DNA of 64,000 bases from Escherichia coli (GCF_009931435.1 NZ_CP043414.1); one strand, 5' to 3'. Shown: positions 12,919 through 56,062, counted from the first letter of the stretch. Numbers and translations: made by a program. Notes: generated from the sequence alone by a model not told the origin.

Positions 12919-12944
12919 TGTCAGAATTTTATGAGGTATGACGA

Positions 12945-13415: not shown

Positions 13416-13432
13416 ATAACAGGGAGTATGTC

Positions 13433-13747
13433 ATGAATATTGTCTGTGTTGCCGCCTGTACGGCGGGTATTGCTCATACCTATATTGCTCGTGAAAAGTT
13501 AATCAAAGGAGCAAAAGCTCTGGGCCATACCATTAAAGTTGAAACCCAGGGAACCATTGGTACAGAAAATGAATTACAGGCGGCAGATATCTCTGCTGCT
13601 GACGTCGTGATTCTTGCTGTAGATGTGAAAATAAAAGGAGAAGAACGCTTCACCAATAAACGTATTGTGCGAGTAAAGACAGAGATCGTCATTAAATCGC
13701 CCGTTCAATTTCTTGAAAAGGTCGAAAAATCACTGGGAAACAAATGA
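13433..13747 (+). CDS. PTS fructose-family EIIB component
   Basis: 104-aa product with N-terminal CVAACTAGIAHTY cysteine phosphorylation motif. Confidence 0.85.
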   Translation: MNIVCVAACTAGIAHTYIAREKLIKGAKALGHTIKVETQGTIGTENELQAADISAADVVILAVDVKIKGEERFTNKRIVRVKTEIVIKSPVQFLEKVEKSLGNK

Positions 13748-13771
13748 TCCTTATACTGGAGGGATCTTAAT

Positions 13772-14863: not shown

Positions 14864-14874
14864 CCGGAGGCCCT

Positions 14875-15726: not shown

Positions 15727-15806
15727 TTCATTTTCTGTCATGGCCTTTATGCCAGTGCAATAACGCACCGGCAGGGCGGACTACACGCTGAAACTGGAGA
15801 TTTAAC

Positions 15807-16667: not shown

Positions 16668-16714
16668 GCCAGAAGGGCGGGGTGACCCGCCTTTTACGCA
16701 ACAAGGAACGAGAT

Positions 16715-17647: not shown

Positions 17648-18308
17648 TTATGTTATTGATAAAGCACATGCCATTGCGCAGACCTTCCGCGTTTGTTTGC
17701 CTGAGTTCGCCTATTTTACGGTGGATGACTGGCTGCAGCGGGAACGGGATAACTGGCAAGAAGTAGTCGACTTACAGCTCGGTTGGGATATCACCGATTT
17801 TGGTCGTGGTGATTTCAACCAAACGGGACTAACACTGCTAACGATGCGCAACGGCGCGCTGGGGTCGGCGGCATATCCAAAACCGTATGCTGAGAAAATG
17901 TTGCAGATCCAACAAGATCAGCAGACTCCCTGGCATTTTCACACCCACAAAATGGAAGATATCCTCAATCGGGGCGGTGGAGACTTATGCATGCAGTTGG
18001 CCTGGGCCAACGAAGCCAATCTCTGTGATGATCAACGAGTCATTACCGTGAATGTTGATGGTCAGCGGCGTACCATGAAACCTGGTGAAACGCTGGTGTT
18101 AAAGCCGGGGCAGGGCATTTGCCTGCCGCCGCGTCTGTATCATCGCTTCTGGGCGGAAAAAGCGTTTGTTCTCGGCTGGGAAATTTCGATGGTAAATGAT
18201 GACCAACACGATAATTATTTTCTTGAGCCGGGAGGACGTTTTCCGGCGATAGAAGAAGATGAACCGGTGAAATGGTTATTGTGCAGTGAGTATGGAATTT
18301 TGCGCTAA
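17628..18308 (+). CDS. Cupin-superfamily protein (putative sugar isomerase)
   Basis: Start chosen at MKRSQINYV preceded by GGAGAAG; HFHTHKMEDI metal-binding-type motif; 20-nt overlap with the kinase gene end. Confidence 0.7.
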   Translation: MKRSQINYVIDKAHAIAQTFRVCLPEFAYFTVDDWLQRERDNWQEVVDLQLGWDITDFGRGDFNQTGLTLLTMRNGALGSAAYPKPYAEKMLQIQQDQQTPWHFHTHKMEDILNRGGGDLCMQLAWANEANLCDDQRVITVNVDGQRRTMKPGETLVLKPGQGICLPPRLYHRFWAEKAFVLGWEISMVNDDQHDNYFLEPGGRFPAIEEDEPVKWLLCSEYGILR

Positions 18309-31955: not shown

Positions 31956-32780
31956 CTATTTCTTCTCTGTAATTTTTACACTGTTTTCCAACTGCTTGAT
32001 GCTGACCTGCGGGGTCGGCAACTCCTCAGGCATGGTTCCGCCAAGTTCCTGAATGGTTTGCCTCACCTTGCTACCCACGTCAAAGTGTGTGGTATTAGCT
32101 TGCTGTTTTGAATTCACGCCATCCCGCTTGAGTTTTTCTTCTGTTTGGGTAGCTCGAAAGAGATTAGCCGCCAGTTCTGTTGAACCCATATGATCCAGGA
32201 TCTTCTGACTCTTTTTCAGCCCCTTCCGCTGATGGATGGCTTTCTGATCTAATCCACCATACAGTCCCCGGTAACCATGATTCTGAAATATGGCGAAATC
32301 GATAGCTGTCGCTACCCCAGCTTGCTGCGCTGCCTCAACTAATTGTTTGTTATGTTCTTTCAACTCATTTCTCAGAAAAAGACGCTTTTCGTCTTCACGA
32401 AGTTGCCTGAAAGCTTCATCGTCAGCCAGCTCCTGCCGTCGGGTCTGGATAGCAAAATAAGTTTGCCCTGCCGCAATAACCGGTTTCGCAGGGTCGCCGT
32501 TTTGTACTACCAGGTAACAGGCATAGCGGGAGAGTACGATGTCTTTTAATGCTCTTTTGGCATTTGAGCCAATTTTGACCATATCGAGGATCTCCTCGAA
32601 ATGGTCATCAATTGTGTGACCACTATTCAGACAAGCTTCTTTGGCGCGCGTTAATACAGGTATAAAGTGACGATACTCTGAATAACCCAGTAGTTTTCCA
32701 AGTTGTCTTGCTGACCATTGTTCTGCTCCGTTTGCATTAATCAGCTTTATCTCTTCAAAAGGTTGATGATGTTCGTTCAT
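31956..32780 (-). CDS. dinD: DNA damage-inducible protein D
   Basis: Start at MNEHHQPFEEIKLI gives 274 aa; LexA box upstream. Confidence 0.9.
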   Translation of the reverse strand: MNEHHQPFEEIKLINANGAEQWSARQLGKLLGYSEYRHFIPVLTRAKEACLNSGHTIDDHFEEILDMVKIGSNAKRALKDIVLSRYACYLVVQNGDPAKPVIAAGQTYFAIQTRRQELADDEAFRQLREDEKRLFLRNELKEHNKQLVEAAQQAGVATAIDFAIFQNHGYRGLYGGLDQKAIHQRKGLKKSQKILDHMGSTELAANLFRATQTEEKLKRDGVNSKQQANTTHFDVGSKVRQTIQELGGTMPEELPTPQVSIKQLENSVKITEKK

Positions 32781-35414: not shown

Positions 35415-35484
35415 AAATATGCGCTGCGCAGGTTTTTACTGTGCGCAGCGTGATGCGGTTTAAGATATCGTGTTAATCTGCTTT

Positions 35485-35678
35485 CGCCAGCAGTGGCAAT
35501 AGCGTTTCCGGCCTTTTATGCCGGGAGGGTCGGCGAGTCGCCGACTTAACGCCAGTAGGTTGTCCAGATACCCAAAGTCGCTCCATTGTACTTAAGTACG
35601 CTTCGCGTACGTCGCGCTGACGCGCTCAGTACAGTTACGCGCCTTCGGGATGGTTTGATGGTATTGCTGCTGTTGGCG
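35485..35678 (+). ncRNA. msr-msd: Retron msr-msd region (template for msDNA), Ec107-like; boundaries approximate
   Basis: Inverted repeats a1 (35485-35501) and a2 (35662-35678) can pair over 17 positions including G-U wobbles; internal perfect stem-loops at 35529-35545 and 35597-35611; lies immediately upstream of the RT gene. Confidence 0.55.
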
Positions 35679-35710
35679 CCTCTTTTGGCCGCCGTGATGT
35701 GGAGAGTGGA

Positions 35711-36670
35711 ATGGATGCTACCCGGATAACCCTTCTGGCGCTCGATTTGTTCGGCTCGCCGGGCTGGAGCGCCGATAAAGAAATACAGCGGCTGTATGCG
35801 CTCAGTAATCATGCCGGACGCCATTACCGACGCATTATTCTTTCTAAACGCCACGGTGGTCAGCGGCTGGTGTTAGCCCCTGATTACTTGCTCAAAACCG
35901 TACAGCGCAACATTCTTAAGAACGTCCTTTCACAATTTCCACTTTCCTCTTTTGCTACCGCCTACCGACAGGGTCGCCCAATCGTCAGCAACGCGCAGCC
36001 TCACTGCCAACAGCCGCAGATCCTTAAACTCGATATCGAAAACTTTTTCGATAGCATTAGCTGGCTACAGGTCTGGCGTGTGTTTAGCCAGACCCAGTTG
36101 CCACGCAATGTGGTAACCATGCTGACCTGGCTTTGTTGCTATAACGACGCGTTACCGCAGGGGGCGCCAACTTCGCCTGCCATTTCCAATCTTGTGATGC
36201 GCCGTTTTGATGAGTGCATAGGGGAATGGTGTCAGGCTCGGGGAATTACCTACACCCGCTACTGCGATGACATGACCTTTTCTGGTCACTTCAATGCCCG
36301 CCAGGTTAAAAATAAAGTATGCGGATTGTTAGCGGAGCTGGGCCTGAGCCTCAATCAACGCAAAAGCTGCCTGATAGCTGCCTGTAAGCGCCAGCAGGTA
36401 ACCGGGATTGTTGTTAATCACAAGCCACAGCTTGCCCGTGAAGCGCGCCGGGCGCTGCGTCAGGAAGTACATTTGTGCCAAAAATATGGCGTTATTTCGC
36501 ATCTTAGTCATCGTGGTGAACTTGATCCTTCTGGCGATCTCCACGCACAGGCAACGGCGTATCTTTATGCTTTGCAGGGAAGAATAAACTGGTTATTGCA
36601 AATCAATCCTGAGGATGAGGCCTTTAAACAGGCGAGGGTGAGTGTAAAGCGAATGCTGGTGGCATGGTAA
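35711..36670 (+). CDS. ret: Retron-type reverse transcriptase (319 aa), consistent with retron-Ec107 RT
   Basis: RT motifs including YCDDMTF (YxDD box); GGAG Shine-Dalgarno 6 nt upstream of the ATG at 35711; inserted between convergent pyrE and slmA. Confidence 0.9.
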   Translation: MDATRITLLALDLFGSPGWSADKEIQRLYALSNHAGRHYRRIILSKRHGGQRLVLAPDYLLKTVQRNILKNVLSQFPLSSFATAYRQGRPIVSNAQPHCQQPQILKLDIENFFDSISWLQVWRVFSQTQLPRNVVTMLTWLCCYNDALPQGAPTSPAISNLVMRRFDECIGEWCQARGITYTRYCDDMTFSGHFNARQVKNKVCGLLAELGLSLNQRKSCLIAACKRQQVTGIVVNHKPQLAREARRALRQEVHLCQKYGVISHLSHRGELDPSGDLHAQATAYLYALQGRINWLLQINPEDEAFKQARVSVKRMLVAW

Positions 36671-36713
36671 GAAAAGCGTCAGGCAGACGTTTCTGCCTGA
36701 ACGTTTGGGAGAA

Positions 36714-41499: not shown

Positions 41500-43264
<1,765 letters not shown>

Positions 43265-43615
43265 AGTAAATAGCTGACTTATGGATGTGCTGGGGATTCT
43301 ATGTATTTAGCTGTGGCTTTACCATTACTTTTCCCGTTTTTGACTTAAATAGCAATTTACCCGCCAATTCTTGCTGAACATCTATACTTTTTTTGTATTT
43401 TTATGCGATTCATTGATTTCCGCAGTACGTGCAGTAAGGAATCGCGGAGCAACAGTGAAAGAATATTGTTGCTAATGATTTTATTTGATTGATTTCTTTA
43501 TTGAAAAACAACGATGTGCTTAAAAATCATTCGGATCGGATTGCCGCGAAAGAAGTGATACACTAGCGCGTCAATATCAGTACGGTATCAGTATTCAGGT
43601 AGCTGTTGAGCCTGG

Positions 43616-43627
43616 GGCGGTAGCGTG
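43616..43627 (+). promoter_or_regulatory. ops element (within a JUMPstart sequence) in the waaQ operon leader; RfaH recruitment site
   Basis: GGCGGTAGCGTG matches the ops consensus; located about 50 bp upstream of waaQ. Confidence 0.8.
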
Positions 43628-43676: not shown

Positions 43677-44735
43677 GTGGATAAGCCATTTCGAAGAATT
43701 TTGCTCATTAAGATGCGTTTTCATGGGGATATGTTATTAACTACTCCCGTCATTAGTTCGCTGAAAAAAAATTACCCTGACGCAAAAATCGATGTGCTGC
43801 TTTATCAGGATACCATCCCGATTCTGTCTGAAAATCCAGAGATTAACGCGCTCTACGGCATAAAAAATAAAAAAGCAAAAGCCTCAGAAAAAATTTCCAA
43901 CTTTTTTCATCTCATCAAGGTATTACGTGCCAATAAGTATGACCTTATCGTCAATCTTACCGATCAATGGATGGTTGCTATACTGGTTCGCTTATTAAAT
44001 GCCCGTGTGAAAATTTCCCAGGATTATCATCATCGGCAGTCTGCTTTTTGGCGTAAAAGCTTCACCCATCTGGTGCCGTTGCAGGGTGGAAATGTGGTGG
44101 AAAGTAACTTATCCGTGCTGACGCCACTGGGTCTCGAATCGTTGGTGAAGCAGACAACCATGAGTTACCCGCCTGCAAGCTGGAAACGAATGCGTCGCGA
44201 ACTTGATCACGCAGGTGTTGGACAAAATTATGTGGTTATCCAACCTACCGCGCGGCAAATCTTTAAATGCTGGGACAACGCCAAGTTTTCCGCTGTGATT
44301 GATGCCTTACATACACGTGGCTATGAAGTCGTTCTGACGTCCGGCCCGGATAAAGACGATCTGGCCTGCGTCAATGAAATTGCGCAGGGATGCCAGACGC
44401 CACCAGTAACGGCGTTGGCCGGAAAGGTAACCTTCCCGGAACTTGGTGCGTTAATCGATCATGCGCAGCTGTTTATTGGCGTTGATTCCGCACCGGCGCA
44501 CATTGCCGCTGCAGTTAATACGCCGCTGATATCGCTGTTTGGTGCGACAGACCATATTTTCTGGCGTCCCTGGTCAAATAACATGATTCAATTCTGGGCT
44601 GGAGATTACCGGGAAATGCCAACACGCGATCAGCGTGACCGAAATGAGATGTATCTTTCGGTTATTCCGGCGGCAGATGTCATTGCAGCTGTCGATAAAT
44701 TACTTCCCTCCTCCACGACAGGTACGTCGTTATGA
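43677..44735 (+). CDS. waaQ: LPS heptosyltransferase III
   Basis: Heptosyltransferase N-terminus (RILLIKMRFHGDMLLTTP, compare WaaC MRVLIVKTSSMGDVLHT); GTG start at 43677 assumed, true start may be a few codons downstream. Confidence 0.9.
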   Translation: MDKPFRRILLIKMRFHGDMLLTTPVISSLKKNYPDAKIDVLLYQDTIPILSENPEINALYGIKNKKAKASEKISNFFHLIKVLRANKYDLIVNLTDQWMVAILVRLLNARVKISQDYHHRQSAFWRKSFTHLVPLQGGNVVESNLSVLTPLGLESLVKQTTMSYPPASWKRMRRELDHAGVGQNYVVIQPTARQIFKCWDNAKFSAVIDALHTRGYEVVLTSGPDKDDLACVNEIAQGCQTPPVTALAGKVTFPELGALIDHAQLFIGVDSAPAHIAAAVNTPLISLFGATDHIFWRPWSNNMIQFWAGDYREMPTRDQRDRNEMYLSVIPAADVIAAVDKLLPSSTTGTSL

Positions 44736-45856
44736 TCGTTGCTTTTTGTTTATATAAATATTTTCCCTTTGGCGGTTTGCAGCGCGATTTTATGCGTATT
44801 GCTCAGACAGTCGCTGCCCGAGGTCATCATGTTCGGGTTTATACCCAGTCGTGGGAAGGCGAATGCCCTGATGTATTTGAACTGATCAACGTGCCGGTTA
44901 AATCGCATACTAATCACGGGCGCAATGCGGAGTATTTTGCCTGGGTGCAAAAACATTTACGTGAACATCCCGTCGATAGAGTCGTTGGATTCAACAAAAT
45001 GCCGGGGCTGGACGTTTATTATGCCGCTGATGTTTGTTATGCCGAGAAAGTGGCGCAGGAGAAAGGCTTTTTCTATCGCTTGACGTCACGTTATCGCCAT
45101 TATGCCGCCTTTGAGCGGGCAACCTTTGAACAGGGCAAGCCGACACAGTTGCTGATGCTGACGGACAAGCAAATCGCCGATTTCCAGAAACATTATCAGA
45201 CTGAAGCGGAGCGTTTTCATATTCTGCCACCGGGGATTTATCCTGATCGTAAATATAGCCAGCAGCCAGCCAATAGCCGTGAAATCTTCCGTAAGAAGAA
45301 TGGAATAACCGAACAACAATATTTATTGTTGCAGGTCGGTTCAGACTTCACGCGTAAAGGTGTTGATCGTTCCATTGAAGCACTTGCTTCATTACCGGAT
45401 TCGCTGCGCCACAACACATTGCTATATGTTGTTGGGCAGGATAAACCGCGAAAATTTGAGGCGCTGGCAGAAAAACGCGGCGTGCGCAGTAATGTTCACT
45501 TCTTCTCGGGGCGCAACGATGTCTCGGAATTAATGGCGGCGGCGGATTTATTACTGCATCCTGCCTACCAGGAAGCGGCGGGAATTGTGCTGCTGGAAGC
45601 GATTACTGCAGGATTACCGGTACTAACAACAGCCGTTTGTGGCTATGCGCGTTATATTGTTGACGCCAATTGCGGCGAGGCTATTGCTGAGCCATTCCGC
45701 CAGGAAACATTGAATGAGATTTTACGCAAAGCGTTAACGCAATCTTCATTGCGCCAGGCCTGGGCGGAAAATGCGCGACATTATGCTGATACACAAGATT
45801 TATACAGTCTGCCAGAGAAAGCAGCGGACATCATAACGGGTGGTCTGGATGGTTGA
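44732..45856 (+). CDS. waaG: LPS core alpha-1,3-glucosyltransferase I (GT4)
   Basis: 374-aa product matching WaaG. Confidence 0.95.
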
Positions 45857-46646
45857 ACTTAAAGAGCCGTTTGCCACGTTATGGCGCGGTAAAGATCCTT
45901 TTGAGGAAGTTAAAACCTTGCAGGGTGAGGTTTTTCGTGAACTGGAAACTCGCCGCACTCTGCGCTTTGAAATGGCGGGCAAAAGCTATTTTCTCAAATG
46001 GCATCGCGGCACGACCCTGAAAGAGATAATCAAAAATTTACTCTCATTGCGGATGCCAGTATTAGGCGCAGACCGCGAATGGAATGCGATTCATCGACTG
46101 CGGGATGTCGGCGTTGATACTATGTATGGGGTGGCATTCGGCGAAAAAGGCATTAATCCACTGACCAGAACCTCGTTTATTATAACCGAAGATCTGACAC
46201 CAACCATCAGTCTGGAAGATTACTGTGCTGACTGGGCGACTAACCCTCCAGATGTTCGCGTAAAGCGTATGCTTATTAAGCGTGTCGCGATGATGGTGCG
46301 CGATATGCATGCTGCGGGCATTAACCACCGTGACTGTTATATCTGTCATTTCCTGCTGCACTTGCCTTTTTCCGGTAAGGAAGAGGAGTTAAAAATTTCA
46401 GTAATTGACCTGCACCGGGCGCAGCTTCGCACGCGCGTTCCACGTCGTTGGCGCGATAAAGATCTTATTGGGCTTTATTTTTCTTCGATGAATATTGGCC
46501 TGACTCAGCGGGATATCTGGCGGTTCATGAAGGTGTATTTTGCTGCCCCGCTTAAAGACATTCTCAAGCAGGAACAAGGGCTGCTGTCGCAAGCAGAAGC
46601 AAAAGCCACAAAAATCAGGGAAAGAACGATTCGAAAATCGTTGTAA
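45849..46646 (+). CDS. waaP: LPS core heptose I kinase
   Basis: Start at [14 protein letters not shown] gives 265 aa. Confidence 0.95.
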
Positions 46647-46661: not shown

Positions 46662-47678
46662 ATGAGTGCCCACTATTTTAATCCACAAGAGATGATCAAT
46701 AAGACAATCATCTTCGATGAAAGGCCAGAGGCGTCAGTGGCATCATCATTCCATGTTGCTTATGGCATTGATAAAAACTTTCTTTTTGGTTGTGGTGTTT
46801 CAATCACGTCAGTTTTGTTACATAACAACGACGTGAGTTTTGTCTTCCACGTTTTTATTGATGATATCCCTGACGCCGATATCCAGCGTTTATCCCAATT
46901 GGCGAAAAGCTATCATACCTGTATCCAGATCCATCTGGTAAATTGTGAACGGCTTAAGGTATTACCGACGACCAAAAATTGGTCTATTGCCATGTATTTC
47001 CGTTTTGTAATTGCAGATTACTTTATTGATCAACAAGATAAGATCCTGTACCTGGATGCTGATATCGCCTGTCAGGGAACCTTAAAACCGCTGATAACAA
47101 TGGATCTTGCCAATAACGTTGCTGCTGTTGTTACTGAACGCGATGCTAACTGGTGGTCGTTACGGGCTCAAAGTCTGCAGTGTAATGAACTTGAAAAGGG
47201 TTACTTTAATTCAGGTGTCCTGTTAATTAATACACTAGCGTGGGCGCAGGAGTCCGTTTCTGCTAAAGCGATGTCGATGCTTGCTGATAAAGCCGTCGTT
47301 TCCCGTTTAACCTATATGGATCAAGATATACTAAATCTTATCCTGTTAGGGAAAGTTAAATTCATTGATGCTAAATACAATACGCAATTTAGTTTAAATT
47401 ATGAATTAAAAAAATCATTTATTTGTCCAATTAATGATGAAACCGTATTAATTCATTATGTCGGCCCGACAAAACCCTGGCATTACTGGGCCGGTTATCC
47501 AAGCGCGCAGCCATTTATCAAAGCCAAAGAAGCATCGCCATGGAAAAATGAACCGTTAATGCGGCCAATTAACTCAAATTATGCTCGTTATTGCGCTAAG
47601 CATAATTTTAAACAAAATAAACCAATTAACGGGATAATGAATTATATTTATTATTTTTATTTAAAGATAATAAAATGA
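46662..47678 (+). CDS. waaO: GT8-family LPS outer-core glycosyltransferase; by position the R1-type WaaO
   Basis: 338-aa GT8 protein (DxD, YFNSGVLLIN motifs) immediately after waaP; AT-rich. Confidence 0.7.
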   Translation: MSAHYFNPQEMINKTIIFDERPEASVASSFHVAYGIDKNFLFGCGVSITSVLLHNNDVSFVFHVFIDDIPDADIQRLSQLAKSYHTCIQIHLVNCERLKVLPTTKNWSIAMYFRFVIADYFIDQQDKILYLDADIACQGTLKPLITMDLANNVAAVVTERDANWWSLRAQSLQCNELEKGYFNSGVLLINTLAWAQESVSAKAMSMLADKAVVSRLTYMDQDILNLILLGKVKFIDAKYNTQFSLNYELKKSFICPINDETVLIHYVGPTKPWHYWAGYPSAQPFIKAKEASPWKNEPLMRPINSNYARYCAKHNFKQNKPINGIMNYIYYFYLKIIK

Positions 47679-47694
47679 CATTGAGAAAAGTTAA

Positions 47695-48690
47695 ATGAAT
47701 GAATTTATAAAAGAACGGTTTTCGTATTTAGCAGATAATAAAAAAGAAAACGTCCCAGAGCTAAATGTTTCCTACGGTATCGATAAGAATTTTTTGTATG
47801 GTGCTGGCGTTTCAATTTCTTCCGTTTTGATTAATAATTCAGATATTAATTTTGTCTTTCATGTTTTCACTGATTATGTGGATGATGATTATTTAAAGTC
47901 ATTTAATGAAACAGCAAAACAATTTAATACCTCAATTATTGTATATTTAATTGACCCAAAATACTTTGCTGATCTACCGACGTCACAGTTTTGGTCGTAC
48001 GCGACATACTTCAGGGTATTGTCCTTTGAATATCTGAGTGAAAGTATTTCCACACTGCTGTATCTGGATGCCGATGTCGTTTGTAAAGGAAGTCTGAAAC
48101 CTCTCACAAAAATTATATTTAAAGATGAGTTTGCTGCGGTTATTCCTGACAATGATAGTACTCAGGCGGCATGTGCAAAACGTCTTAACATTCCCGAAAT
48201 GAATGGACGTTATTTCAATGCAGGCGTTATCTATGTCAATCTTAAAAAATGGCATGAAGCAAATTTGACACCGTATTTACTCAAACTTTTACGAGGGGAA
48301 ACTAAATATGGCTCTCTTAAATATTTAGATCAGGATGCGTTGAATATCGCATTTAATATGAATAATATCTACCTTGCGAAGGATTTTGATACTATTTATA
48401 CCCTGAAAAACGAACTTTATGATCGTAGTCATCGAAAGTATCAGCAAACCATTACCGATAAAACAGTGTTGATTCACTATACAGGGATAACTAAACCATG
48501 GCATAGCTGGGCTGGATATCCGTCTGCATCATACTTTAATATCGCGCGTGAACAATCTCCCTGGAAGAAATATCCTCTTAAAGAGGCGCGGACTGTTGCA
48601 GAAATGCAGAAACAATATAAGCATCTGTTTGCCCATGGTGAGTATATAAAAGGCATAACTTCATTAATTAAGTACAAGCTTAAGAAATAA
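47695..48690 (+). CDS. waaT: GT8-family LPS outer-core glycosyltransferase; by position the R1-type WaaT
   Basis: 331-aa GT8 paralog (LDADVVCKG, YFNAGVIYVN). Confidence 0.65.
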   Translation: MNEFIKERFSYLADNKKENVPELNVSYGIDKNFLYGAGVSISSVLINNSDINFVFHVFTDYVDDDYLKSFNETAKQFNTSIIVYLIDPKYFADLPTSQFWSYATYFRVLSFEYLSESISTLLYLDADVVCKGSLKPLTKIIFKDEFAAVIPDNDSTQAACAKRLNIPEMNGRYFNAGVIYVNLKKWHEANLTPYLLKLLRGETKYGSLKYLDQDALNIAFNMNNIYLAKDFDTIYTLKNELYDRSHRKYQQTITDKTVLIHYTGITKPWHSWAGYPSASYFNIAREQSPWKKYPLKEARTVAEMQKQYKHLFAHGEYIKGITSLIKYKLKK

Positions 48691-48699
48691 ATTACTCTT

Positions 48700-49392
48700 A
48701 TGATTACAAGTATACGTTATCGCGGCTTCTCATTTTATTACAAAGATAATGATAATAAATATAAAGAAATCTTTGATGAAATACTGGCCTATAATTTTAA
48801 AACAGTAAAAGTATTACGTAATATTGATGATACCAAAGTATCGTTGATTGATACGAAATATGGTCGCTATGTTTTTAAAGTCTTTGCTCCGAAAACGAAA
48901 AGGAATGAACGTTTTTTAAAATCTTTTGTAAAAGGTGACTACTATCAGAATTTGATCGTTGAAACCGATCGTGTCAGAAGTGCAGGTCTTACTTTTCCTA
49001 ATGATTTTTATTTTCTGGCTGAGCGTAAAATTTTCAACTATGCCAGTGTTTTTATCATGCTTATCGAGTATGTCGAGGGCGTAGAGCTCAATGATATGCC
49101 GATTATTCCAGAAAATGTTAAAGCAGAAATTAAGGTTTCAATGGAAAAATTGCATGCCTTAAATATGCTATCGGGCGACCCACACCGGGGTAACTTTATC
49201 GTTAGTAAAGATGGTGTCAGGATAATTGACCTATCCGGTAAAAGCTGTACGGCAGAGCGTAAAGCTCGTGATCGTCTGGCCATGGAACGTCACCTGGGTA
49301 TTGCCAACGAAATAAAAGATTATGGCTACTATTCAGTAATCTACAGAACCAAACTACGCAAATTTATTAAAAAATTAAAAGGCAAAGCGTAA
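48700..49392 (+). CDS. waaY: LPS core heptose II kinase
   Basis: 230-aa kinase-like protein between GT8 genes, as WaaY in waa clusters. Confidence 0.8.
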   Translation: MITSIRYRGFSFYYKDNDNKYKEIFDEILAYNFKTVKVLRNIDDTKVSLIDTKYGRYVFKVFAPKTKRNERFLKSFVKGDYYQNLIVETDRVRSAGLTFPNDFYFLAERKIFNYASVFIMLIEYVEGVELNDMPIIPENVKAEIKVSMEKLHALNMLSGDPHRGNFIVSKDGVRIIDLSGKSCTAERKARDRLAMERHLGIANEIKDYGYYSVIYRTKLRKFIKKLKGKA

Positions 49393-49417
49393 ACCACACA
49401 GTCAAAACGGAACCAAC

Positions 49418-50446
49418 ATGGATTTATTAGCTGAGAGTATTACTGAAGTCGCTGTCTCTGGGGAAATTGCTAACACCGATCGTGTGTTAAATATCGCTTA
49501 CGGTATTGACCGTAATTTTTTATTTGGTGCGGCAGTATCTATGCAATCAGTTGTTATGCATAACCCGGACCTTGCGGTTAAGTTTCATCTCTTTACCGAC
49601 TACATTGATGAAGATTATCTACAACGTGTTAACGCTTTTACCAGCAAAAATGCTAACGTTGAAGTAAGAATTTATAAAGTCTCCAGTGCCTTTATTGATA
49701 TCTTCCCCAGCCTGAAACAGTGGTCTTATGCAACATTCTTCCGTTTAGTTGCGTTCCAGTATCTGAGTGAAACTATTGAAAATCTGTTATATATCGATGC
49801 TGATGTCATCTGTAAAGGCTCATTAGCTGGATTGCTTGATATTAATTTTGACGGCGATAAGTTTGCAGCTGTTATTAAAGATGTGCCTTTTATGCAGGAA
49901 AAACCAGCGAAGCGTCTGGCTATAGAGGGACTTCCAGGGAATTATTTCAACGCTGGTGTAGTATATCTGCAGCTTGAAGCATGGTCGAAAAATGATTTTA
50001 TGAACAAAGCCATTGCTATGCTGGCAAGTGACCCGCAGCACACGAAATATAAATGCCTTGATCAGGATATTTTAAATATTCTGTTCTTTGGTCATTGTAT
50101 TTTTATTAGCGGCGATTATGATTGCTTTTATGGCATTGACTATGAGTTAAAAAATAAAAGCAATGAAGATTATAAAAAGACCATTACCGATGATACTAAG
50201 CTGATTCATTATGTTGGCGTAACGAAGCCCTGGAACGACTGGACAAATTATCCCTGCCAGAAGTATTTTAATGAGGCTTATCAGGCTTCTTGCTGGAATG
50301 ATGTGGCGTTTATTCCAGCCACGAATGAAAAGCAGTATCAAGTGAAATACCAACATGCAAAGAAAAATGGTGATACGTTTAACGCTTTCATTTACTTCAT
50401 TAAATTCAAATTAAATAAGTATAAAAGAAAACTATTTGGGCAATAA
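49418..50446 (+). CDS. waaW: GT8-family LPS outer-core glycosyltransferase; by position the R1-type WaaW
   Basis: 342-aa GT8 paralog (IDADVICKG, YFNAGVVYLQ). Confidence 0.65.
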   Translation: MDLLAESITEVAVSGEIANTDRVLNIAYGIDRNFLFGAAVSMQSVVMHNPDLAVKFHLFTDYIDEDYLQRVNAFTSKNANVEVRIYKVSSAFIDIFPSLKQWSYATFFRLVAFQYLSETIENLLYIDADVICKGSLAGLLDINFDGDKFAAVIKDVPFMQEKPAKRLAIEGLPGNYFNAGVVYLQLEAWSKNDFMNKAIAMLASDPQHTKYKCLDQDILNILFFGHCIFISGDYDCFYGIDYELKNKSNEDYKKTITDDTKLIHYVGVTKPWNDWTNYPCQKYFNEAYQASCWNDVAFIPATNEKQYQVKYQHAKKNGDTFNAFIYFIKFKLNKYKRKLFGQ

Positions 50447-50524
50447 AAATCATGGATGTCTGAGTTACAATAATAATTAAGGATGAGTACTATCATATTT
50501 TATTAGTTCAGGCAAGAGAACACG

Positions 50525-51508
50525 ATGAGCAATGATTACCCTTTAGTATCCATAATAATACCGACGTATAATTCATCTGATTACATTACTGAAACTCTAA
50601 CGAAATTAGAAAAACAAACTTACCCAAATTTTGAAATTGTTATTGTTAATGATGGTTCTAAAGATAACACATCAAACGTTTTGAGAGAGTATGGGTTAAC
50701 CCACTCGCAATTAATTATTATCAATAAAGAAAATGGCGGTGTTTCGTCTGCCAGGAATACAGGTATCCGCAAGGCGCAAGGACAGTTTATATGTTTTATG
50801 GATGATGATGATGAGATAGATCCTAACTATCTGCTGAAGATGTATTCCAGACAACATGAGACGGGAGGGGATGCGATTTATTGTGGGCTTTATGGCCATC
50901 ATATAAAAAATGGTGTTACTTACTCACCTATAAATACAGAGTTTAATGAAGGGTCTTTACTTTTCGACTTTTTTTATAAAAAGGTCAGATTCCATATAGG
51001 GTGCTTGTTTATAAGAAAACAACTCCTGGAAGATAATAATCTTTTTTTTGATGAAGATTTACGACTAGGAGAAGATCTGGATTTTATCTATCGACTGCTA
51101 ATTACATGCGATATGTATGCGGTTCCATATTATATGTATAAGCATAACTATAGAGAAAATTCCTTAATGAACTCATGTAGAACCATCACTCATTATCGAC
51201 ATGAGTCATTTGCGCACGAAAGAATCTACTCTTCTGTGATGCAGTTATACAAAGGTAACCGGAAAGAAGAAATTCATACATTATTGAGTAAAAATAGAAC
51301 TTATCATAAAACTCGTTATTTATGGAATGTTCTACTTAATGGCGATTTTGAATTATTAAATCAATTAGTTGAAAGCAATGAAAAAGAATTGAAAGATTGT
51401 AATCTTCTTGGCAAGAGAGATAAGAGGCGAGCAAAAATATTAGCATCAAAAAACTATATTCTCTGGAGGATGGTAAGACTGGTAAATAGAAAAAAGAATA
51501 AACGTTAG
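50525..51508 (+). CDS. waaV: GT2-family glycosyltransferase; by position the R1-type WaaV
   Basis: 327-aa protein with the GT2 N-terminus VSIIIPTYNSSDYI...VIVNDGSKDNT and DDDD motif. Confidence 0.65.
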   Translation: MSNDYPLVSIIIPTYNSSDYITETLTKLEKQTYPNFEIVIVNDGSKDNTSNVLREYGLTHSQLIIINKENGGVSSARNTGIRKAQGQFICFMDDDDEIDPNYLLKMYSRQHETGGDAIYCGLYGHHIKNGVTYSPINTEFNEGSLLFDFFYKKVRFHIGCLFIRKQLLEDNNLFFDEDLRLGEDLDFIYRLLITCDMYAVPYYMYKHNYRENSLMNSCRTITHYRHESFAHERIYSSVMQLYKGNRKEEIHTLLSKNRTYHKTRYLWNVLLNGDFELLNQLVESNEKELKDCNLLGKRDKRRAKILASKNYILWRMVRLVNRKKNKR

Positions 51509-51553
51509 GTCTTCCATTAAATAACCCATCCTCGTAGCATAGGTTGAAATTAT

Positions 51554-52807
51554 ATGTCGTTTTGTTGGAATGAAATTAACTCTGGTGTCAAGTCTTTAAC
51601 TCTCATATTATGTATGTTGTCTTTAATGACTTTGTCTTTGTGGGATGATGTTGCAACAAAGTTTCTTCATGCAGCTGGAATTATATCTGCATTATATTTT
51701 CTAGCGACACCAAAAAAAACAATAACTAATAATCCTACGTTGTTAATTTTCATCTCATTATGTCTTTTGGGTATCGTTAATATCATCTGGTATTCACATT
51801 ATAAAGTTTCAGGCTCGGTTTATACCAATGCATATCGTGGCCCAATGGAAACTGGAAAAATTGCCTTGTGTAGTGCTTTTATTTTCTTAGTTCTTTTTGC
51901 TAAAGATGAGATGAGAACCAAAATAAAATTTGGGAAACTAATTCTGTTCGCATCCCTGGCAACGCAGTTACTTTTTTTTGCGCATGCCATGTGGCAACAT
52001 TTCTATTTAAACGTCGACCGTGTTGCATTATCAGCTTCCCACGCTACAACAGCAGGCTACATCATCCTTTTCCCTTCTTTACTGGCATCAATTCTCATTT
52101 TAAAATCCGACTTTAGACATAAAACAACATTATATACAATTAACTTCATGCTTAGCTTATGTGCTGTTATAGTAACTGAAACGCGTGCAGCCATATTAGT
52201 GTTTCCATTCTTTGCGTTACTATTAATCGTAATGGATAGTTATATTAATAAGCGAATTAATTATAAGTTATATTGTTTTATTGCGATTGCATTATTAGCA
52301 GGTGTATTTTCTTTTAAAGATACATTACTTACGAGAATGAATGACTTAAATAGGGATTTAGTTAATTATTCGCATGATAACACCAGAACTTCAGTCGGTG
52401 CCCGTCTGGCAATGTATGAAGTTGGTTTAAAAACATATTCTCCAATAGGACAATCACTGGAAAAACGCGCGGAAAAAATACATGAACTAGAAGAGAAAGA
52501 GCCTAGATTAAGTGGCGCTTTACCCTTTGTAGATTCTCATTTGCATAACGATCTCATAGATACGTTATCAACGCGTGGTATTCCTGGAGTAGTATTAACA
52601 ATTTTAGCCTTTTCAGCAATATTCATATATGCCTTAAGAACTGCTAAAGAACCTTATATTTTAATCTTGCTTTTTTCACTACTGGTAGTAGGCCTAAGTG
52701 ATGTAATACTCTTTTCTAAACCGGTTCCGACTGCTGTGTTTGTCACCATAATATTGCTTTGTGCTTATTTTAAAGCACAATCGGACCAATGTTTATTAGA
52801 TAAGTAA
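51554..52807 (+). CDS. waaL: O-antigen ligase
   Basis: 417-aa highly hydrophobic polytopic protein at the end of the waaQ operon. Confidence 0.8.
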   Translation: MSFCWNEINSGVKSLTLILCMLSLMTLSLWDDVATKFLHAAGIISALYFLATPKKTITNNPTLLIFISLCLLGIVNIIWYSHYKVSGSVYTNAYRGPMETGKIALCSAFIFLVLFAKDEMRTKIKFGKLILFASLATQLLFFAHAMWQHFYLNVDRVALSASHATTAGYIILFPSLLASILILKSDFRHKTTLYTINFMLSLCAVIVTETRAAILVFPFFALLLIVMDSYINKRINYKLYCFIAIALLAGVFSFKDTLLTRMNDLNRDLVNYSHDNTRTSVGARLAMYEVGLKTYSPIGQSLEKRAEKIHELEEKEPRLSGALPFVDSHLHNDLIDTLSTRGIPGVVLTILAFSAIFIYALRTAKEPYILILLFSLLVVGLSDVILFSKPVPTAVFVTIILLCAYFKAQSDQCLLDK

Positions 52808-52817
52808 TGAATATGTG

Positions 52818-52849
52818 AAATAAAATCAGCAAGGAAGCTGATTTTATTT
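52818..52849. terminator. Bidirectional terminator between convergent waaL and waaC
   Basis: Perfect 13-bp inverted repeat AAATAAAATCAGC/GCTGATTTTATTT with a 6-nt loop. Confidence 0.55.
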
Positions 52850-52876
52850 CAAAATTATCTATTAAAGAGTTGTAAT

Positions 52877-53857
52877 TTAAATCATGGCAGCTTTTTCAGC
52901 GTTTTCTTCAATGAATTGCTTAACAGCATTTGCTGTCAATTGAGACAACTCATTCCCCGGTGCCCTACATACCATCTGATTCTTCCCATACCCGCCAATT
53001 AATCCCGGATCGGTTGGCCCATAAACCGTGATATTCGGTCGATCCAGTGCTGCAGTTAAATGGCTTAATCCTGTATCGACTGACACAACAAATTTAGCCC
53101 CCGCCAGCACACAAGCAACGCCTTCCAGACTCATCTTCGGCAATACTTCAACATAAGCAAATCCTTCCGCCAGTCTTTTTGCCCGCTCTTCTTCATGCGG
53201 CGCGCCCCACGGAAGTTTAATGCGAATCCCTGAATCTGCCAGTAAACCAATCAACTCTCGCCAGTGTGCTTCCGGCCAGTGTTTATCATCACGGGTTGTT
53301 GCATGAAGAAATACGGCATATTCGCCAGCATCTGTTGGCAGGTTCGTCAGGAAATGCTGCGCAATAGCATAATCGCCCTGAGTCTGCGGTTTGCTATAGC
53401 CCAGACTTTTGGCAAACAGTTCGCGGGTGCGTTCTACGGCGTGCTGCTGTTTTGCAATATGATGTTTACGATTGTAAAACAGGCTGGCTAAAGGTTCGCG
53501 TGCGGTTTGCCAGTCCATTCCATGCTTTACGCCATGCGCCAGACGCGTAACTAGTGCCGCGCTTTTTACCAGCCCCTGAGCGTCGATAACTGCGTCATAG
53601 TTCTCTGCTTGTAGCGCTTCACGAAACGCTTTGCGTTCAGCTTTTATGGGGGCCGAGAACCAGGCTTTACGCCAGCGACGTATTGCCACAGGAATAACTC
53701 GCTCAACGGCGGCGTGCCAGGAAGGAATTTGTGCGAACCCTTCTTCCACCACCCAGTCAAACTTAATCCCCGGGATTGCCTGCTGGGCATCAGTGAGTGC
53801 GGGCAACGTATGGAGAACATCGCCCATCGACGATGTTTTAACGATCAAAACCCGCAT
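52877..53857 (-). CDS. waaC: LPS heptosyltransferase I
   Basis: MRVLIVKTSSMGDVLHTLPALTDAQ... matches WaaC. Confidence 0.95.
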   Translation of the reverse strand: MRVLIVKTSSMGDVLHTLPALTDAQQAIPGIKFDWVVEEGFAQIPSWHAAVERVIPVAIRRWRKAWFSAPIKAERKAFREALQAENYDAVIDAQGLVKSAALVTRLAHGVKHGMDWQTAREPLASLFYNRKHHIAKQQHAVERTRELFAKSLGYSKPQTQGDYAIAQHFLTNLPTDAGEYAVFLHATTRDDKHWPEAHWRELIGLLADSGIRIKLPWGAPHEEERAKRLAEGFAYVEVLPKMSLEGVACVLAGAKFVVSVDTGLSHLTAALDRPNITVYGPTDPGLIGGYGKNQMVCRAPGNELSQLTANAVKQFIEENAEKAAMI

Positions 53858-53860
53858 CCG

Positions 53861-54907
53861 TCAGGCTTCCTCTTGTAACAATAGCGCGTTGAGTTCTTCC
53901 AGTACGCGCTGGGGAGTAATGTCGATCAAGCTCTGGTGATAACCCTCCGCAGCATCACCTTTACGCACTTTGTGATAGCCGGTAATCAGGCGGATCACGC
54001 GCGCTTTATGGGATAGTGGCGGTGTGAAGTCCGGGCTACTCGGACCATACAGGGCAACCAAAGGACGATTGAGCGCCGCCGCAACGTGCATCAGGCCAGA
54101 ATCGTTAGTGACAATGGCTTTACAGGCTGCAATCAGGATAACCGCTTGATCAAGCTGTGTTTCCCCCGCCAGGTTCCGGCACCATGCCTGCTGCTCGGTA
54201 TTCAAAGCGGCAAGAATCTCATTGCCCGCTTCATGATCTTTCGCCGAGCCAAACAGAACCACCTGATAACCTTCATCAATCAGCTGCTTTGCCAGCTCAG
54301 CATAGTGGTAGTGTGGCCAGCGTTTTGCCGGACCAAACTCCGCCCCCGGGCAAAAGCCAATCATCGGACGTTCTGATGAGAGCGAAAATTGATTACAGGT
54401 ATATGATTTTTCACCTTCGCTCACCTGCAACTGCGGCCATAACAATGGCTGCGGCAGATCTTGTGCGGTACGCATAATGCCTTTGTCATAGGCCAGCGCG
54501 ACATAGCGTTCCACCATTAGCGGCCAGGCTTCTTTATCGAGCACGCGTACATCGTTAAGTAAACCGTAGCGCATCTCGCCGCGCCAGCCGGTGCGATGAG
54601 GAATACCCGCGAAGAAAGGCACTAATGCGGACTTGAAGGAGTTGGGTAAGACGTAGGCGCGGTCGTAGCGCTTTTCACGCAGACTATGACCCAGTTTGCG
54701 GCGTTCGCCGATTTCCAGCGCTCCGTGACCGAGAGGCATAGGGATAGCTTCGTTAACTTCCGGCATCCGCGATAACAATGGACGGCACCATGCCGGTGCC
54801 ATCACGTCGATTATCGCCTGGGGATAGCGCGCCTGGAGCGTGCGATAGAGACTTTGCGACATCATCATGTCGCCAACCCAAGACGGGCCGATCACCAGTA
54901 TTTTCAT
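53861..54907 (-). CDS. waaF: LPS heptosyltransferase II
   Basis: 348-aa MKILVIGPSWVGDMMMSQSLYRTL... matches WaaF. Confidence 0.95.
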   Translation of the reverse strand: MKILVIGPSWVGDMMMSQSLYRTLQARYPQAIIDVMAPAWCRPLLSRMPEVNEAIPMPLGHGALEIGERRKLGHSLREKRYDRAYVLPNSFKSALVPFFAGIPHRTGWRGEMRYGLLNDVRVLDKEAWPLMVERYVALAYDKGIMRTAQDLPQPLLWPQLQVSEGEKSYTCNQFSLSSERPMIGFCPGAEFGPAKRWPHYHYAELAKQLIDEGYQVVLFGSAKDHEAGNEILAALNTEQQAWCRNLAGETQLDQAVILIAACKAIVTNDSGLMHVAAALNRPLVALYGPSSPDFTPPLSHKARVIRLITGYHKVRKGDAAEGYHQSLIDITPQRVLEELNALLLQEEA

Positions 54908-54916
54908 GCAGAGCTC

Positions 54917-55849
54917 TTATGCGTCGCGATTCAGCCAGGCCATGTATTCCGTTACACCTTCAGCAACGGTTTTGAACGGTTTGTCGTAACCCGCCGCGCG
55001 CAGATTCGTCAGATCTGCCTGAGTGAACGCCTGATAGCGGCCTTTCAGTTTATCCGGGAACGGAATGTATTCGATCTGGCCTTTCTTGTGATAAGCAAGC
55101 GTAGCATCTGCTACTGCCTGGAAGGATTCTGCACGACCGGTGCCGAGGTTGAAGATGCCGGAAACGCCGTTTTCCAGGAACCACAGATTCACATCAGCCA
55201 CGTCGCCCACATAGACGAAGTCACGTTTGAAGTTCTCGCTACCTTCGAACAGCTTCGGTGATTCACCGTTGTTAAGCTGAGTGTTGAGATGGAAAGCGAC
55301 GCTCGCCATGCTGCCTTTATGGCCTTCACGCGGTCCATAAACGTTGAAATAGCGGAAGCCAACAATCTGCGAGTTCGCTTCTGGCAGGATTTGGCGAACA
55401 TATTCATCAAACAGGAATTTTGAGTAACCGTAGACGTTCAACGGTTTTTCGTACTCGCGGGATTCAATAAAGTCGGAGGTGCGACCGCCGTAAGTGGCCG
55501 CGGAAGAAGCGTACAGGAACGGGATTTCGCGTTCCAGACAGTAGTGCAGCAGCTCTTTGGAGTATTGATAGTTGTTATCCATCATATACTTGCCATCCCA
55601 CTCGGTGGTGGAAGAGCACGCGCCTTCGTGGAAAATCGCTTCGACATCGCCGAACTCTTCGCCAGCCATAATCTGGATCAGGAAGTCTTCCTTATCCATA
55701 TAGTCCGCGATATCCAGATCCACCAGGTTCACAAACTTGGTGCCGTCTTTCAGGTTGTCCACCACCAGAATATCGGTGATGCCTTTGTCATTCAGGGCTT
55801 TAACGATGTTGCTGCCGATAAAGCCCGCGCCGCCGGTAACGATGATCAT
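54917..55849 (-). CDS. hldD: ADP-L-glycero-D-manno-heptose 6-epimerase
   Basis: 310-aa [23 protein letters not shown]... (Rossmann GxxGxxG) matches HldD (RfaD). Confidence 0.95.
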
Positions 55850-56062
55850 AACTGTAACCTTCGAATTATGGAGTCAGAGACAATCTCAGACACGAATGCT
55901 TCTATCATATCACTACACGGCGTTGGCTTCAGCCATTCGCCAAAAGTGAGATTGATGGACGTTATTTATCCTGAATTTTGCAGAAGTGTTAACGCGTCAT
56001 CTCGTCGCAACCTATAAGTTTGGGTAATATGTGCTGGAATTTGCCCTGTCTGGAGAATCGCA

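What the first reader, a model, noticed from the sequence alone, without database searches (positions are those of the whole stretch)
46662..52807. LPS outer-core genes indicate an R1-type core, with waaL inside the waaQ operon
After waaQ-waaG-waaP the cluster contains GT8, GT8, heptose kinase, GT8, GT2 and ligase genes, all on the plus strand and all markedly AT-rich. This order corresponds to waaO-waaT-waaY-waaW-waaV-waaL of the R1 core type. It differs from K-12, which has waaS, waaB, waaZ and waaU and places waaL in the hldD operon. The low GC content marks this block as horizontally exchanged. The assignment of the individual GT8 paralogs rests on position only.
Basis: partly seen in the sequence, partly recalled or inferred. 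Interest (0 to 1): 0.35.

Follow-up and report, generated by a model that had tools for sequence, protein, structure and literature searches.

The report
Standard E. coli R1 LPS core locus

Summary
After waaQ-waaG-waaP, six intact plus-strand ORFs at 46662-52807 carry GT8, GT8, WaaY kinase, GT8, GT2 and O-antigen-ligase domains. Their GC is 35.2%, against 50.9% for the rest of the window.

The R1 interpretation also holds, and it now rests on sequence identity rather than gene position.
- The proteins are 96.6-99.1% identical to those of E. coli B/BL21(DE3), whose core is documented as R1 type. WaaT is 99.4% identical to the shared R1/R4 ortholog.
- The GT8 paralogs are at most 43% identical to each other.
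- The R4 marker (GT25 waaX) and the K-12 and R3 markers are absent from the window. The ligase is only 36% identical to R4 WaaL.
- Both published R1 typing primers match exactly, 839 bp apart. No primer for another type matches within three mismatches.
- 1825 of 5426 complete E. coli genomes carry the same block.

waaL lies 45 nt after waaV on the same strand. It sits downstream of a JUMPstart/ops element and converges on waaC across a hairpin, which is the known R1/R4 layout.

Sharp homology breakpoints against R3, R4 and K-12 loci support cassette replacement. Low GC alone does not show this, because all core types share it.

Verdict: already known; low interest.

The parts
41987..43264 (-). 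waaA (Kdo transferase), divergent from the waaQ operon
   Evidence: ORF. It is collinear with the annotated waaA of RMDEC465 and BL21.
43589..43627 (+). JUMPstart element containing the ops octamer GGCGGTAG (43616-43623), about 50 nt upstream of waaQ
   Evidence: Rfam RF01707 scores 55.2 bits against a gathering score of 35. The exact ops match is and the sequence.
43677..44735 (+). waaQ (heptosyltransferase III)
   Evidence: NCBIfam NF007742 RfaQ scores 713 bits against a cut-off of 467. The protein is 98.9% identical to BL21 WaaQ.
44732..45856 (+). waaG (GT4 glucosyltransferase I); overlaps waaQ by 4 nt and waaP by 8 nt
   Evidence: Pfam Glycos_transf_1 and Glyco_transf_4. The protein is 98.9% identical to BL21 WaaG.
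45849..46646 (+). waaP (heptose I kinase); start taken as in the PGAP annotation of homologous loci
   Evidence: NCBIfam NF011703 RfaP scores 480 bits. The protein is 99.6% identical to BL21 WaaP.
46662..47678 (+). waaO (GT8; adds Glc II alpha-1,3 to Glc I in the R1 core)
   Evidence: Pfam GT8. It is 97.0% identical to BL21 WaaO and 96.4% to R4 WaaO, but only 51.9% to K-12 WaaO and 53.3% to R3 WaaI. The role is taken from the literature summary read.
47695..48690 (+). waaT (GT8; adds Gal I alpha-1,2 to Glc II)
   Evidence: It is 99.4% identical to the ortholog in R4 strain FDAARGOS_1282. It is collinear with the BL21 gene that IS1 splits, and that gene is named waaT in PMC3446290 and PMC8594841.
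48700..49392 (+). waaY (heptose II kinase)
   Evidence: Pfam WaaY E 4.5e-129. NCBIfam RfaY scores 399 bits against a cut-off of 248. It is 99.1% identical to BL21 WaaY and 52% to K-12 and R3 WaaY.
49418..50446 (+). waaW (GT8; adds Gal II alpha-1,2 to Gal I)
   Evidence: It is 98.2% identical to BL21 WP_000364777.1, annotated UDP-galactose--(galactosyl) LPS alpha1,2-galactosyltransferase. The shared R1/R4 typing primer matches exactly at 50287-50306.
50525..51508 (+). waaV (GT2 beta-glucosyltransferase; the R1-specific gene)
   Evidence: Pfam Glycos_transf_2. It is 97.2% identical to BL21 WaaV. The R1-specific primer matches exactly at 51107-51125. PDB sequence relatives are inverting GT2 enzymes.
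51554..52807 (+). waaL (R1-type O-antigen ligase), the last gene on the waaQ strand
   Evidence: Pfam Wzy_C. It is 96.6% identical to BL21 WaaL, 35.9% to R4 WaaL, 31.2% to K-12 WaaL and 21.3% to R3 WaaL. Its only PDB sequence relative is the 7TPG ligase.
52816..52851 (.). 15-bp-stem inverted repeat between the convergent stops of waaL and waaC; a candidate bidirectional terminator
   Evidence: Terminator-like scan and sequence. Function is inferred, not shown.
52877..53857 (-). waaC (heptosyltransferase I); its last 50-80 nt belong to the type-specific segment
   Evidence: NCBIfam RfaC scores 631 bits. Homology to the R3, R4 and K-12 loci resumes only at 52929-52959.
53861..54907 (-). waaF (heptosyltransferase II)
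   Evidence: NCBIfam RfaF scores 752 bits.
54917..55849 (-). hldD / rfaD (ADP-heptose 6-epimerase), first gene of the hldD-waaF-waaC operon
   Evidence: NCBIfam NF008360 scores 677 bits.

Best explanation
The region is the outer-core part of a canonical, intact E. coli R1-type waa locus: waaO-waaT-waaY-waaW-waaV-waaL, the distal two thirds of the waaQ operon.

Inferred mechanism, from the established R1 pathway. After WaaG places Glc I on Hep II, WaaO adds Glc II by an alpha-1,3 link. WaaT adds Gal I by an alpha-1,2 link, and WaaW adds Gal II by an alpha-1,2 link. WaaV, an inverting GT2, then adds the beta-glucose side branch. This branch is the R1-specific residue and the attachment site for O-polysaccharide. 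WaaY phosphorylates Hep II. WaaL, which is matched to this acceptor, ligates undecaprenyl-PP-linked O-antigen to the completed core in the periplasm.

Transcription probably starts upstream of the JUMPstart/ops element at 43589-43627, which would make it RfaH-dependent. It probably runs through waaL to the hairpin at 52816-52851.

The block is one of five interchangeable low-GC cassettes. These are swapped by homologous recombination in the conserved flanks (waaP and the 5' end of waaO on one side, waaC on the other).

Shown here: gene content, gene order, intactness, orthology, breakpoints and prevalence. Inferred: the enzyme linkages, the LPS structure and co-transcription.
For: - Domain content and gene order.
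- Amino-acid identity of 96.6-99.4% to the R1 genes of BL21(DE3) and to the shared R1/R4 genes. Identity is 43% or less between the GT8 paralogs, and 52% or less to their K-12 and R3 counterparts.
- BL21 / E. coli B is documented as R1 type with IS1 in waaT.
- The LPSTyper R1 primer pair matches exactly, giving 839 bp against the published 842 bp. No R2, R3, R4 or K-12 primer matches with three or fewer mismatches.
- 1825 of 5426 complete E. coli genomes (33.6%) hold at least 80% of the block at 95-99.7% identity. This matches the published R1 prevalence of 35.4%.
- No WaaX, WaaU, WaaZ, WaaS or WaaB homolog is present in the window.
- A JUMPstart element with ops lies upstream of waaQ.
- Intergenic gaps inside the block are 9-78 nt, and a hairpin follows waaL.
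- Breakpoints lie at 46711 and 52929 against R3, and at 50375 and 52958 against R4. Flanks are about 97% identical. Inside the block, similarity is 66% or lower, or undetectable.
- The pathway roles come from the literature summary read.
Against: - No direct comparison with the F470 type-strain sequence was possible, so proxies were used (BL21, PGAP names and published primers).
- The proteins differ by 1-3% from those of BL21. The exact allele set is shared at 99% or more by only 85 of the matching records.
- NCBI labels the first GT8 a 3-alpha-galactosyltransferase. That label conflicts with the glucosyltransferase role assigned to R1 WaaO in the literature. The label comes from a single HMM (NF011718) that covers both WaaO and WaaI.
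- Co-transcription of waaL and the actual LPS chemistry were not tested.
Confidence: 0.95

Rival explanations
1. The locus is the R4 core type, which has the same waaO-waaT-waaY-waaW genes and also carries waaL in the waaQ operon.
For: The first 3704-3714 nt of the block (waaO through most of waaW) are about 98% identical to those of roughly 700 genomes that lack the rest. One of these, FDAARGOS_1282, has the R4 layout.
Against: R4 carries a 257-aa GT25 gene (waaX) where this window has a 327-aa GT2 gene. No WaaX homolog is in the window. The ligase is 35.9% identical to R4 WaaL and 96.6% to R1 WaaL. The R4-F primer is absent. Homology to the R4 locus stops at 50375 and resumes at 52958.
Confidence: 0.01
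2. The strain is an R1/R4 hybrid like ECOR46, with a second waaX-waaL pair elsewhere in the genome, so that its LPS is not purely R1.
For: Such a hybrid has been reported once, for ECOR46 (PMC13293308). Only 64 kb of this genome is visible.
Against: The window locus is uninterrupted and fully collinear with ordinary R1 genomes. There is no second ligase or waaX in the window. Genomes matching the block have a median of one place each.
Confidence: 0.01
3. The locus is of R1 type but functionally truncated, giving a rough or incomplete core as in E. coli B, through an inactivating lesion.
For: R1 loci do suffer such lesions: IS1 sits in waaT in BL21, and IS1 interrupts the block in strain UID2309220033 (H26).
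Against: All nine waaQ-operon ORFs are full length relative to their orthologs and contain no internal stops. Each of the six block proteins occurs as an exact sequence on 16-111 other contigs. The only length change is one extra C-terminal residue in WaaW.
Confidence: 0.03

Closest known systems
E. coli R1 core waa locus (type strain F470; also E. coli B, E. coli C and Shigella sonnei)
   Same: The gene content and order are the same: waaQGP-O-T-Y-W-V-L, convergent with hldD-waaF-waaC. Protein identity to BL21(DE3) is 96.6-99.6%. Both R1 typing primers match exactly. The low GC and the JUMPstart leader are also shared.
   Different: The differences are allelic only. Amino-acid divergence is 1-3%. 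A 3-bp indel at the waaW stop gives 342 aa instead of 341 and an 839-bp amplicon instead of 842 bp. waaT is intact here, whereas IS1 disrupts it in BL21.
E. coli R4 core waa locus
   Same: waaO, waaT, waaY and most of waaW are shared at 91.8-99.4% amino-acid identity. waaL is also the last gene of the waaQ operon.
   Different: R4 has GT25 waaX instead of GT2 waaV. It also has a different waaL (35.9% identity), a different waaW tail and a different waaC tail. The segment 50376-52957 is R1-specific.
E. coli K-12 and R3 core waa loci
   Same: Both share the conserved framework: waaA, waaQ, waaG, waaP, waaC, waaF and hldD. They also have distant GT8 and WaaY homologs at equivalent steps (about 52% identity for WaaO/WaaI and for WaaY).
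   Different: K-12 has waaS, waaB, waaR(J), waaZ and waaU. R3 has waaI, waaJ and waaD. In both, waaL follows waaC on the hldD strand. Both also carry htrL/yibB between hldD and kbl, which is absent here.

Membership tests
E. coli R1 LPS core type | Gene order waaQ-G-P-O-T-Y-W-V-L on one strand, convergent with hldD-waaF-waaC | tested here: met
   The ORF map is collinear without rearrangement with BL21(DE3) and RMDEC465.
E. coli R1 LPS core type | Presence of waaV (GT2 beta-glucosyltransferase) between waaW and waaL | tested here: met
   Pfam PF00535. The protein is 97.2% identical to BL21 WaaV.
E. coli R1 LPS core type | R1-specific waaL allele | tested here: met
   Identity is 96.6% to BL21 WaaL, against 35.9% to R4, 31.2% to K-12 and 21.3% to R3.
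E. coli R1 LPS core type | Positive with type-specific PCR primers (LPSTyper R1-F with R1R4-R) and negative with the other types' primers | tested here: met
   In silico, both primers match exactly at 50287-50306 (+) and 51107-51125 (-), giving an 839-bp product. No R2, R3, R4 or K-12 primer matches within 3 mismatches. The primers come from PMC13293308.
E. coli R1 LPS core type | Near-identity to the F470 reference proteins WaaO, WaaT, WaaW, WaaV and WaaL | not tested
   The F470 sequence is not in the collections available here, and the primary papers are not held. BL21 / E. coli B served as a documented R1 proxy.
E. coli R1 LPS core type | R1 oligosaccharide structure, or reactivity with R1-specific antibody | not testable with these tools
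   This needs LPS chemistry or serology.
E. coli R4 LPS core type | GT25 waaX between waaW and waaL, with an R4-type waaL | tested here: not met
   There is no WaaX homolog in the window. The R4-F primer is absent. WaaL is 35.9% identical to R4 WaaL.
E. coli K-12 / R2 LPS core types | waaS and waaB after waaP; waaZ plus waaU or waaK at the distal end; waaL downstream of waaC in the hldD operon | tested here: not met
   tblastn with K-12 WaaS, WaaB, WaaZ and WaaU finds nothing in the window. waaL is on the waaQ strand.
E. coli R3 LPS core type | waaI-waaY-waaJ-waaD, with waaL downstream of waaC | tested here: not met
   Homology to the O157:H7 locus ends at 46711 and resumes at 52929. The only WaaD hit is a weak GT4 match inside waaG.
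waaQ operon (RfaH-dependent long transcript) including waaL | JUMPstart/ops leader upstream of waaQ | tested here: met
   Rfam RF01707 at 43589-43627 scores 55.2 bits. The ops octamer lies at 43616-43623.
waaQ operon (RfaH-dependent long transcript) including waaL | waaL co-transcribed with the upstream genes | tested here: inconclusive
   waaL is co-directional with waaV and 45 nt downstream of it. The only plus-strand terminator-like site inside the operon lies within the waaW coding sequence, at a frequency no higher than in shuffled sequence. A hairpin follows waaL. Promoter-like matches are at chance level (35 found against 32 expected), so an internal promoter cannot be excluded without RNA data.

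The most novel reading that the evidence does not exclude
This allele lineage of the R1 block is shared at 99% or more by only 85 of about 2500 matching complete-genome records. It carries roughly 3% amino-acid divergence from E. coli B in WaaO, WaaV and WaaL. It might have altered donor or acceptor specificity, for example a changed side branch or a different range of O-antigens ligated. The strain would then type as R1 by PCR but display a variant core.
Probability: 0.02. Interest if true: 0.3.

Novelty: already known. Interest (0 to 1): 0.06.

Why it matters
Core type governs phage receptor range, the compatibility between core and O-antigen ligation, and reactivity with core-directed antibodies. 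Knowing that this strain is R1 is therefore useful annotation. It adds nothing new to biology: the R1 locus, its gene functions and the placement of waaL in the waaQ operon were described in 1998-2000, and the block is present in about a third of sequenced E. coli. The one practical point is that automated annotation leaves waaT, waaW, waaV and waaL with generic names. It also calls R1 waaO a galactosyltransferase, which may mislead readers.

Tried and rejected
- I tried to read the primary papers, Amor et al. 2000 (PMC97256) and Heinrichs et al. 1998 (JBC 273:29497). Neither is held. I relied instead on held papers that summarise them.
- I considered R4, K-12, R2 and R3 assignments. All were rejected on marker genes, ligase identity and typing primers.
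- I considered an ECOR46-like R1/R4 hybrid. Nothing in the window supports it, but the rest of the genome is unseen.
- One genome, EC77 (H22), matched up to 290 nt into waaV, and I followed it as a possible hybrid. Its locus is full of frameshift and partial annotations and looks like assembly noise rather than a variant.
- I checked whether low GC singles out this block as exchanged. It does not, because every core type's outer-core block is 33-35% GC.
- The promoter scan is uninformative in this AT-rich DNA (35 hits against 32 expected).
- The identity-level evidence was already decisive.
Full report
**Observation.** The ORF list shows a plus-strand run of genes:
- waaQ 43677-44735
- waaG 44732-45856
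- waaP 45849-46646
- six further ORFs at 46662-47678, 47695-48690, 48700-49392, 49418-50446, 50525-51508 and 51554-52807

Beyond these, waaC (52877-53857), waaF (53861-54907) and hldD (54917-55849) lie on the minus strand.

Pfam gives GT8 plus the GT8 C-terminal domain for ORFs 1, 2 and 4. It gives WaaY for ORF 3, GT2 for ORF 5 and Wzy_C (O-antigen ligase) for ORF 6. NCBIfam confirms RfaQ, RfaP, RfaY, RfaC, RfaF and the heptose epimerase above their curated cut-offs.

The six genes have 32.7-37.8% GC, and the block as a whole has 35.2%. The rest of the window has 50.9%.

**What it is.** A megablast of the block against 5426 complete E. coli genomes finds at least 80% of it in 1825 genomes, at 95-99.7% identity. 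About 700 further genomes match only the first 3704-3714 nt. The best match is strain RMDEC465, at 99.7% in the block and 98.2-98.4% in the flanks.

BL21(DE3) has the identical gene order, with IS1 splitting the second GT8 gene. E. coli B strains are documented to have an R1-type core truncated by an IS1 insertion in waaT (PMC8594841 and PMC3446290). This anchors both the R1 label and the name waaT for ORF 2.

Amino-acid identities to reference loci are:

| Window ORF | Closest ortholog | Identity | Other comparisons |
|---|---|---|---|
| ORF 1 | BL21 WaaO | 97.0% | K-12 WaaO 51.9%; R3 WaaI 53.3% |
| ORF 2 | WaaT ortholog of an R4 strain | 99.4% | |
| ORF 3 | BL21 WaaY | 99.1% | |
| ORF 4 | BL21 WaaW (PGAP: UDP-galactose--(galactosyl) LPS alpha1,2-galactosyltransferase) | 98.2% | |
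| ORF 5 | BL21 WaaV | 97.2% | |
| ORF 6 | BL21 WaaL | 96.6% | R4 WaaL 35.9%; K-12 31.2%; R3 21.3% |

The three GT8 paralogs are 33-43% identical to each other. The paralog assignment therefore no longer rests on position.

In the R4 comparison strain, a 257-aa GT25 gene (waaX) sits where waaV sits here. tblastn finds no WaaX, WaaU, WaaZ, WaaS or WaaB homolog anywhere in the window.

**Independent typing test.** The published LPSTyper primers (PMC13293308) were run in silico.
- R1R4-R (waaW) matches exactly at 50287-50306.
- R1-F (waaV) matches exactly at 51107-51125 on the opposite strand.
- The product is 839 bp, against the published 842 bp.
- None of the R2, R3, R4 or K-12 primers matches, even with three mismatches.

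The 3-bp difference is a small indel at the waaW stop codon. It makes WaaW end in ...KLFGQ (342 aa) rather than ...KLFG (341 aa) as in BL21.

**Operon context.** Rfam finds a JUMPstart element at 43589-43627, scoring 55.2 bits. It contains the ops octamer at 43616-43623, about 50 nt upstream of waaQ.
- Genes from waaQ to waaL overlap or are separated by 9-78 nt. waaL starts 45 nt after waaV.
- A 15-bp-stem inverted repeat at 52816-52851 lies between the convergent stops of waaL and waaC.
- This is consistent with waaL being the last gene of an RfaH-dependent waaQ transcript, the arrangement known for R1 and R4 (from my own knowledge of Heinrichs et al. 1998, which could not be read here).
- In K-12 and R3, waaL instead follows waaC on the hldD strand.
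- Co-transcription itself was not tested. The promoter scan is at chance level in this AT-rich DNA.

**Mechanism (inferred from the established R1 pathway, as summarised in the paper read).**
- WaaG adds Glc I.
- WaaO adds Glc II.
- WaaT adds Gal I.
- WaaW adds Gal II.
- WaaV then adds the beta-Glc side branch and requires prior WaaW action.
- WaaP and WaaY phosphorylate Hep I and Hep II, and WaaQ adds Hep III.
- The title of Heinrichs et al. 1998 (cited) states that the R1-specific beta-glucosyltransferase provides the O-polysaccharide attachment site. This explains why waaV and a matched waaL travel together.

Sequence relatives with solved structures fit these chemistries:
- LgtC-type retaining GT8 enzymes for the alpha-linkages
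- inverting GT2 enzymes for WaaV
- the 7TPG O-antigen ligase for WaaL

**Horizontal exchange.** Low GC alone does not discriminate. The K-12, R3 and R4 outer-core blocks are 33.3%, 33.1% and 34.5% GC.

The stronger evidence is the breakpoint map.
- Against the R3 locus, identity is 97.2% up to 46711, which is 50 nt into waaO. Inside the block it collapses to 66% or less, or to nothing. It resumes at 96.8% from 52929, inside the 3' end of waaC.
- Against R4, the type-specific segment is only 50376-52957: the waaW tail, waaV, waaL and the waaC tail.
- Against K-12, even waaA through waaP is only 84% identical, while waaC through hldD is 96.6%.

This pattern is what cassette replacement by recombination in conserved flanks would produce, and it agrees with the literature view.

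**Comparison with what is known, and novelty.** Everything matches the R1 core locus as described. R1 is the most prevalent type, at 35.4% of 4,505 typed genomes in PMC13293308, and 33.6% in my own count. The membership features that can be tested in sequence are all met: gene order, waaV, the R1 waaL allele and the typing primers. The defining features of R4, K-12/R2 and R3 were tested and not met. Chemistry, serology and a direct F470 alignment remain untested. The finding is correct, already known and of low interest.

**Annotation caveat.** NCBI names R1 waaO a "lipopolysaccharide 3-alpha-galactosyltransferase". The cause is a single HMM, NF011718, that covers both WaaO and WaaI. The literature assigns R1 WaaO a glucosyltransferase role. 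The protein is equally distant from K-12 WaaO and R3 WaaI.

Noticed in passing
window 1-7067: tRNA-Sec (selC) lies at 6977-7067 (-). It is followed by an island that is absent from the closest genome, RMDEC465. The island holds a P4-type tyrosine integrase (5489-6673, -), an IS1 transposase fragment (3278-3781), a type A chloramphenicol acetyltransferase (2146-2805, -), a GNAT (1565-1945) and the C-terminal half of a Tn3-family transposase (92-1501). Only 3 of 5426 genomes hold at least 80% of this stretch in one place. It looks like a resistance module within a selC-integrated island.
   Followed up: partly
window 35416-36712: A 1.3-kb insert lies between pyrE and slmA and is absent from RMDEC465. 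It encodes a 323-aa retron-type reverse transcriptase at 35699-36670 (+). The best NCBIfam match is the retron St85 family, at 228.6 bits against a cut-off of 235. The insert is present at this site, in single copy, in 407 of 5426 E. coli genomes. By size and location it looks like retron Ec107 (from memory: Herzer et al. 1992). The msr/msd RNA was not examined.
   Followed up: partly
window about 11365-18307 (by collinearity with L006 22328-29270): A non-K-12 sugar-utilisation island lies between yicH and yicI. It holds a BglG-family antiterminator, PTS fructose-type IIA/IIB/IIC components, two aldolases, a ROK protein and a D-lyxose/D-mannose isomerase, as annotated in RMDEC465. The window is collinear with that locus.
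   Followed up: no
window 46662-47678: PGAP and NCBIfam name R1 waaO a 3-alpha-galactosyltransferase through HMM NF011718. The literature describes R1 WaaO as a glucosyltransferase. The protein is about 52-53% identical to both K-12 WaaO and R3 WaaI, so donor specificity cannot be read from this model.
   Followed up: partly
window 50440-50450: A 3-bp indel plus a substitution at the waaW stop codon adds one residue: WaaW is 342 aa here and in RMDEC465, and 341 aa in BL21. It also shortens the R1 typing amplicon to 839 bp.
   Followed up: yes
window 52877-52959: The last 50-80 nt of waaC belong to the core-type-specific segment, because homology to the R3, R4 and K-12 loci resumes only at 52929-52959. 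WaaC is 326 aa in R1 loci, 319 aa in R4 and K-12 and 330 aa in R3.
   Followed up: partly
window 55850-56062: There is no htrL/yibB gene between hldD and kbl in the window, RMDEC465, BL21 or the R4 strain. K-12 and O157:H7 carry it there.
   Followed up: no
window 58710-59744: A second GT2 gene lies downstream of tdh. It matches NCBIfam NF007482 (PRK10073) at 631 bits, and its N-terminus is 32% identical to WaaV. By position it corresponds to yibD/waaH of K-12 (from memory).
   Followed up: partly
window 15499, 23069, 31452 (+); 35955, 38542 (-): The ops octamer GGCGGTAG occurs 6 times in the window, against 1.25 expected. Only the copy at 43616 lies in a JUMPstart context. The others were not examined.
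   Followed up: no
window 32535-32747: A stretch of about 210 bp does not align with RMDEC465 by megablast. The adjacent segment 32748-35415 is only 96.9% identical, against about 98.8% elsewhere. This suggests a local recombination patch near yicC/rph/pyrE.
   Followed up: no
L007 (E. coli EC77, NZ_CP196708.1) 8039-16116: The waa locus of this assembly is annotated with many frameshifted and partial genes, and the similarity ends inside waaV. This is probably assembly error rather than a real variant core locus.
   Followed up: partly
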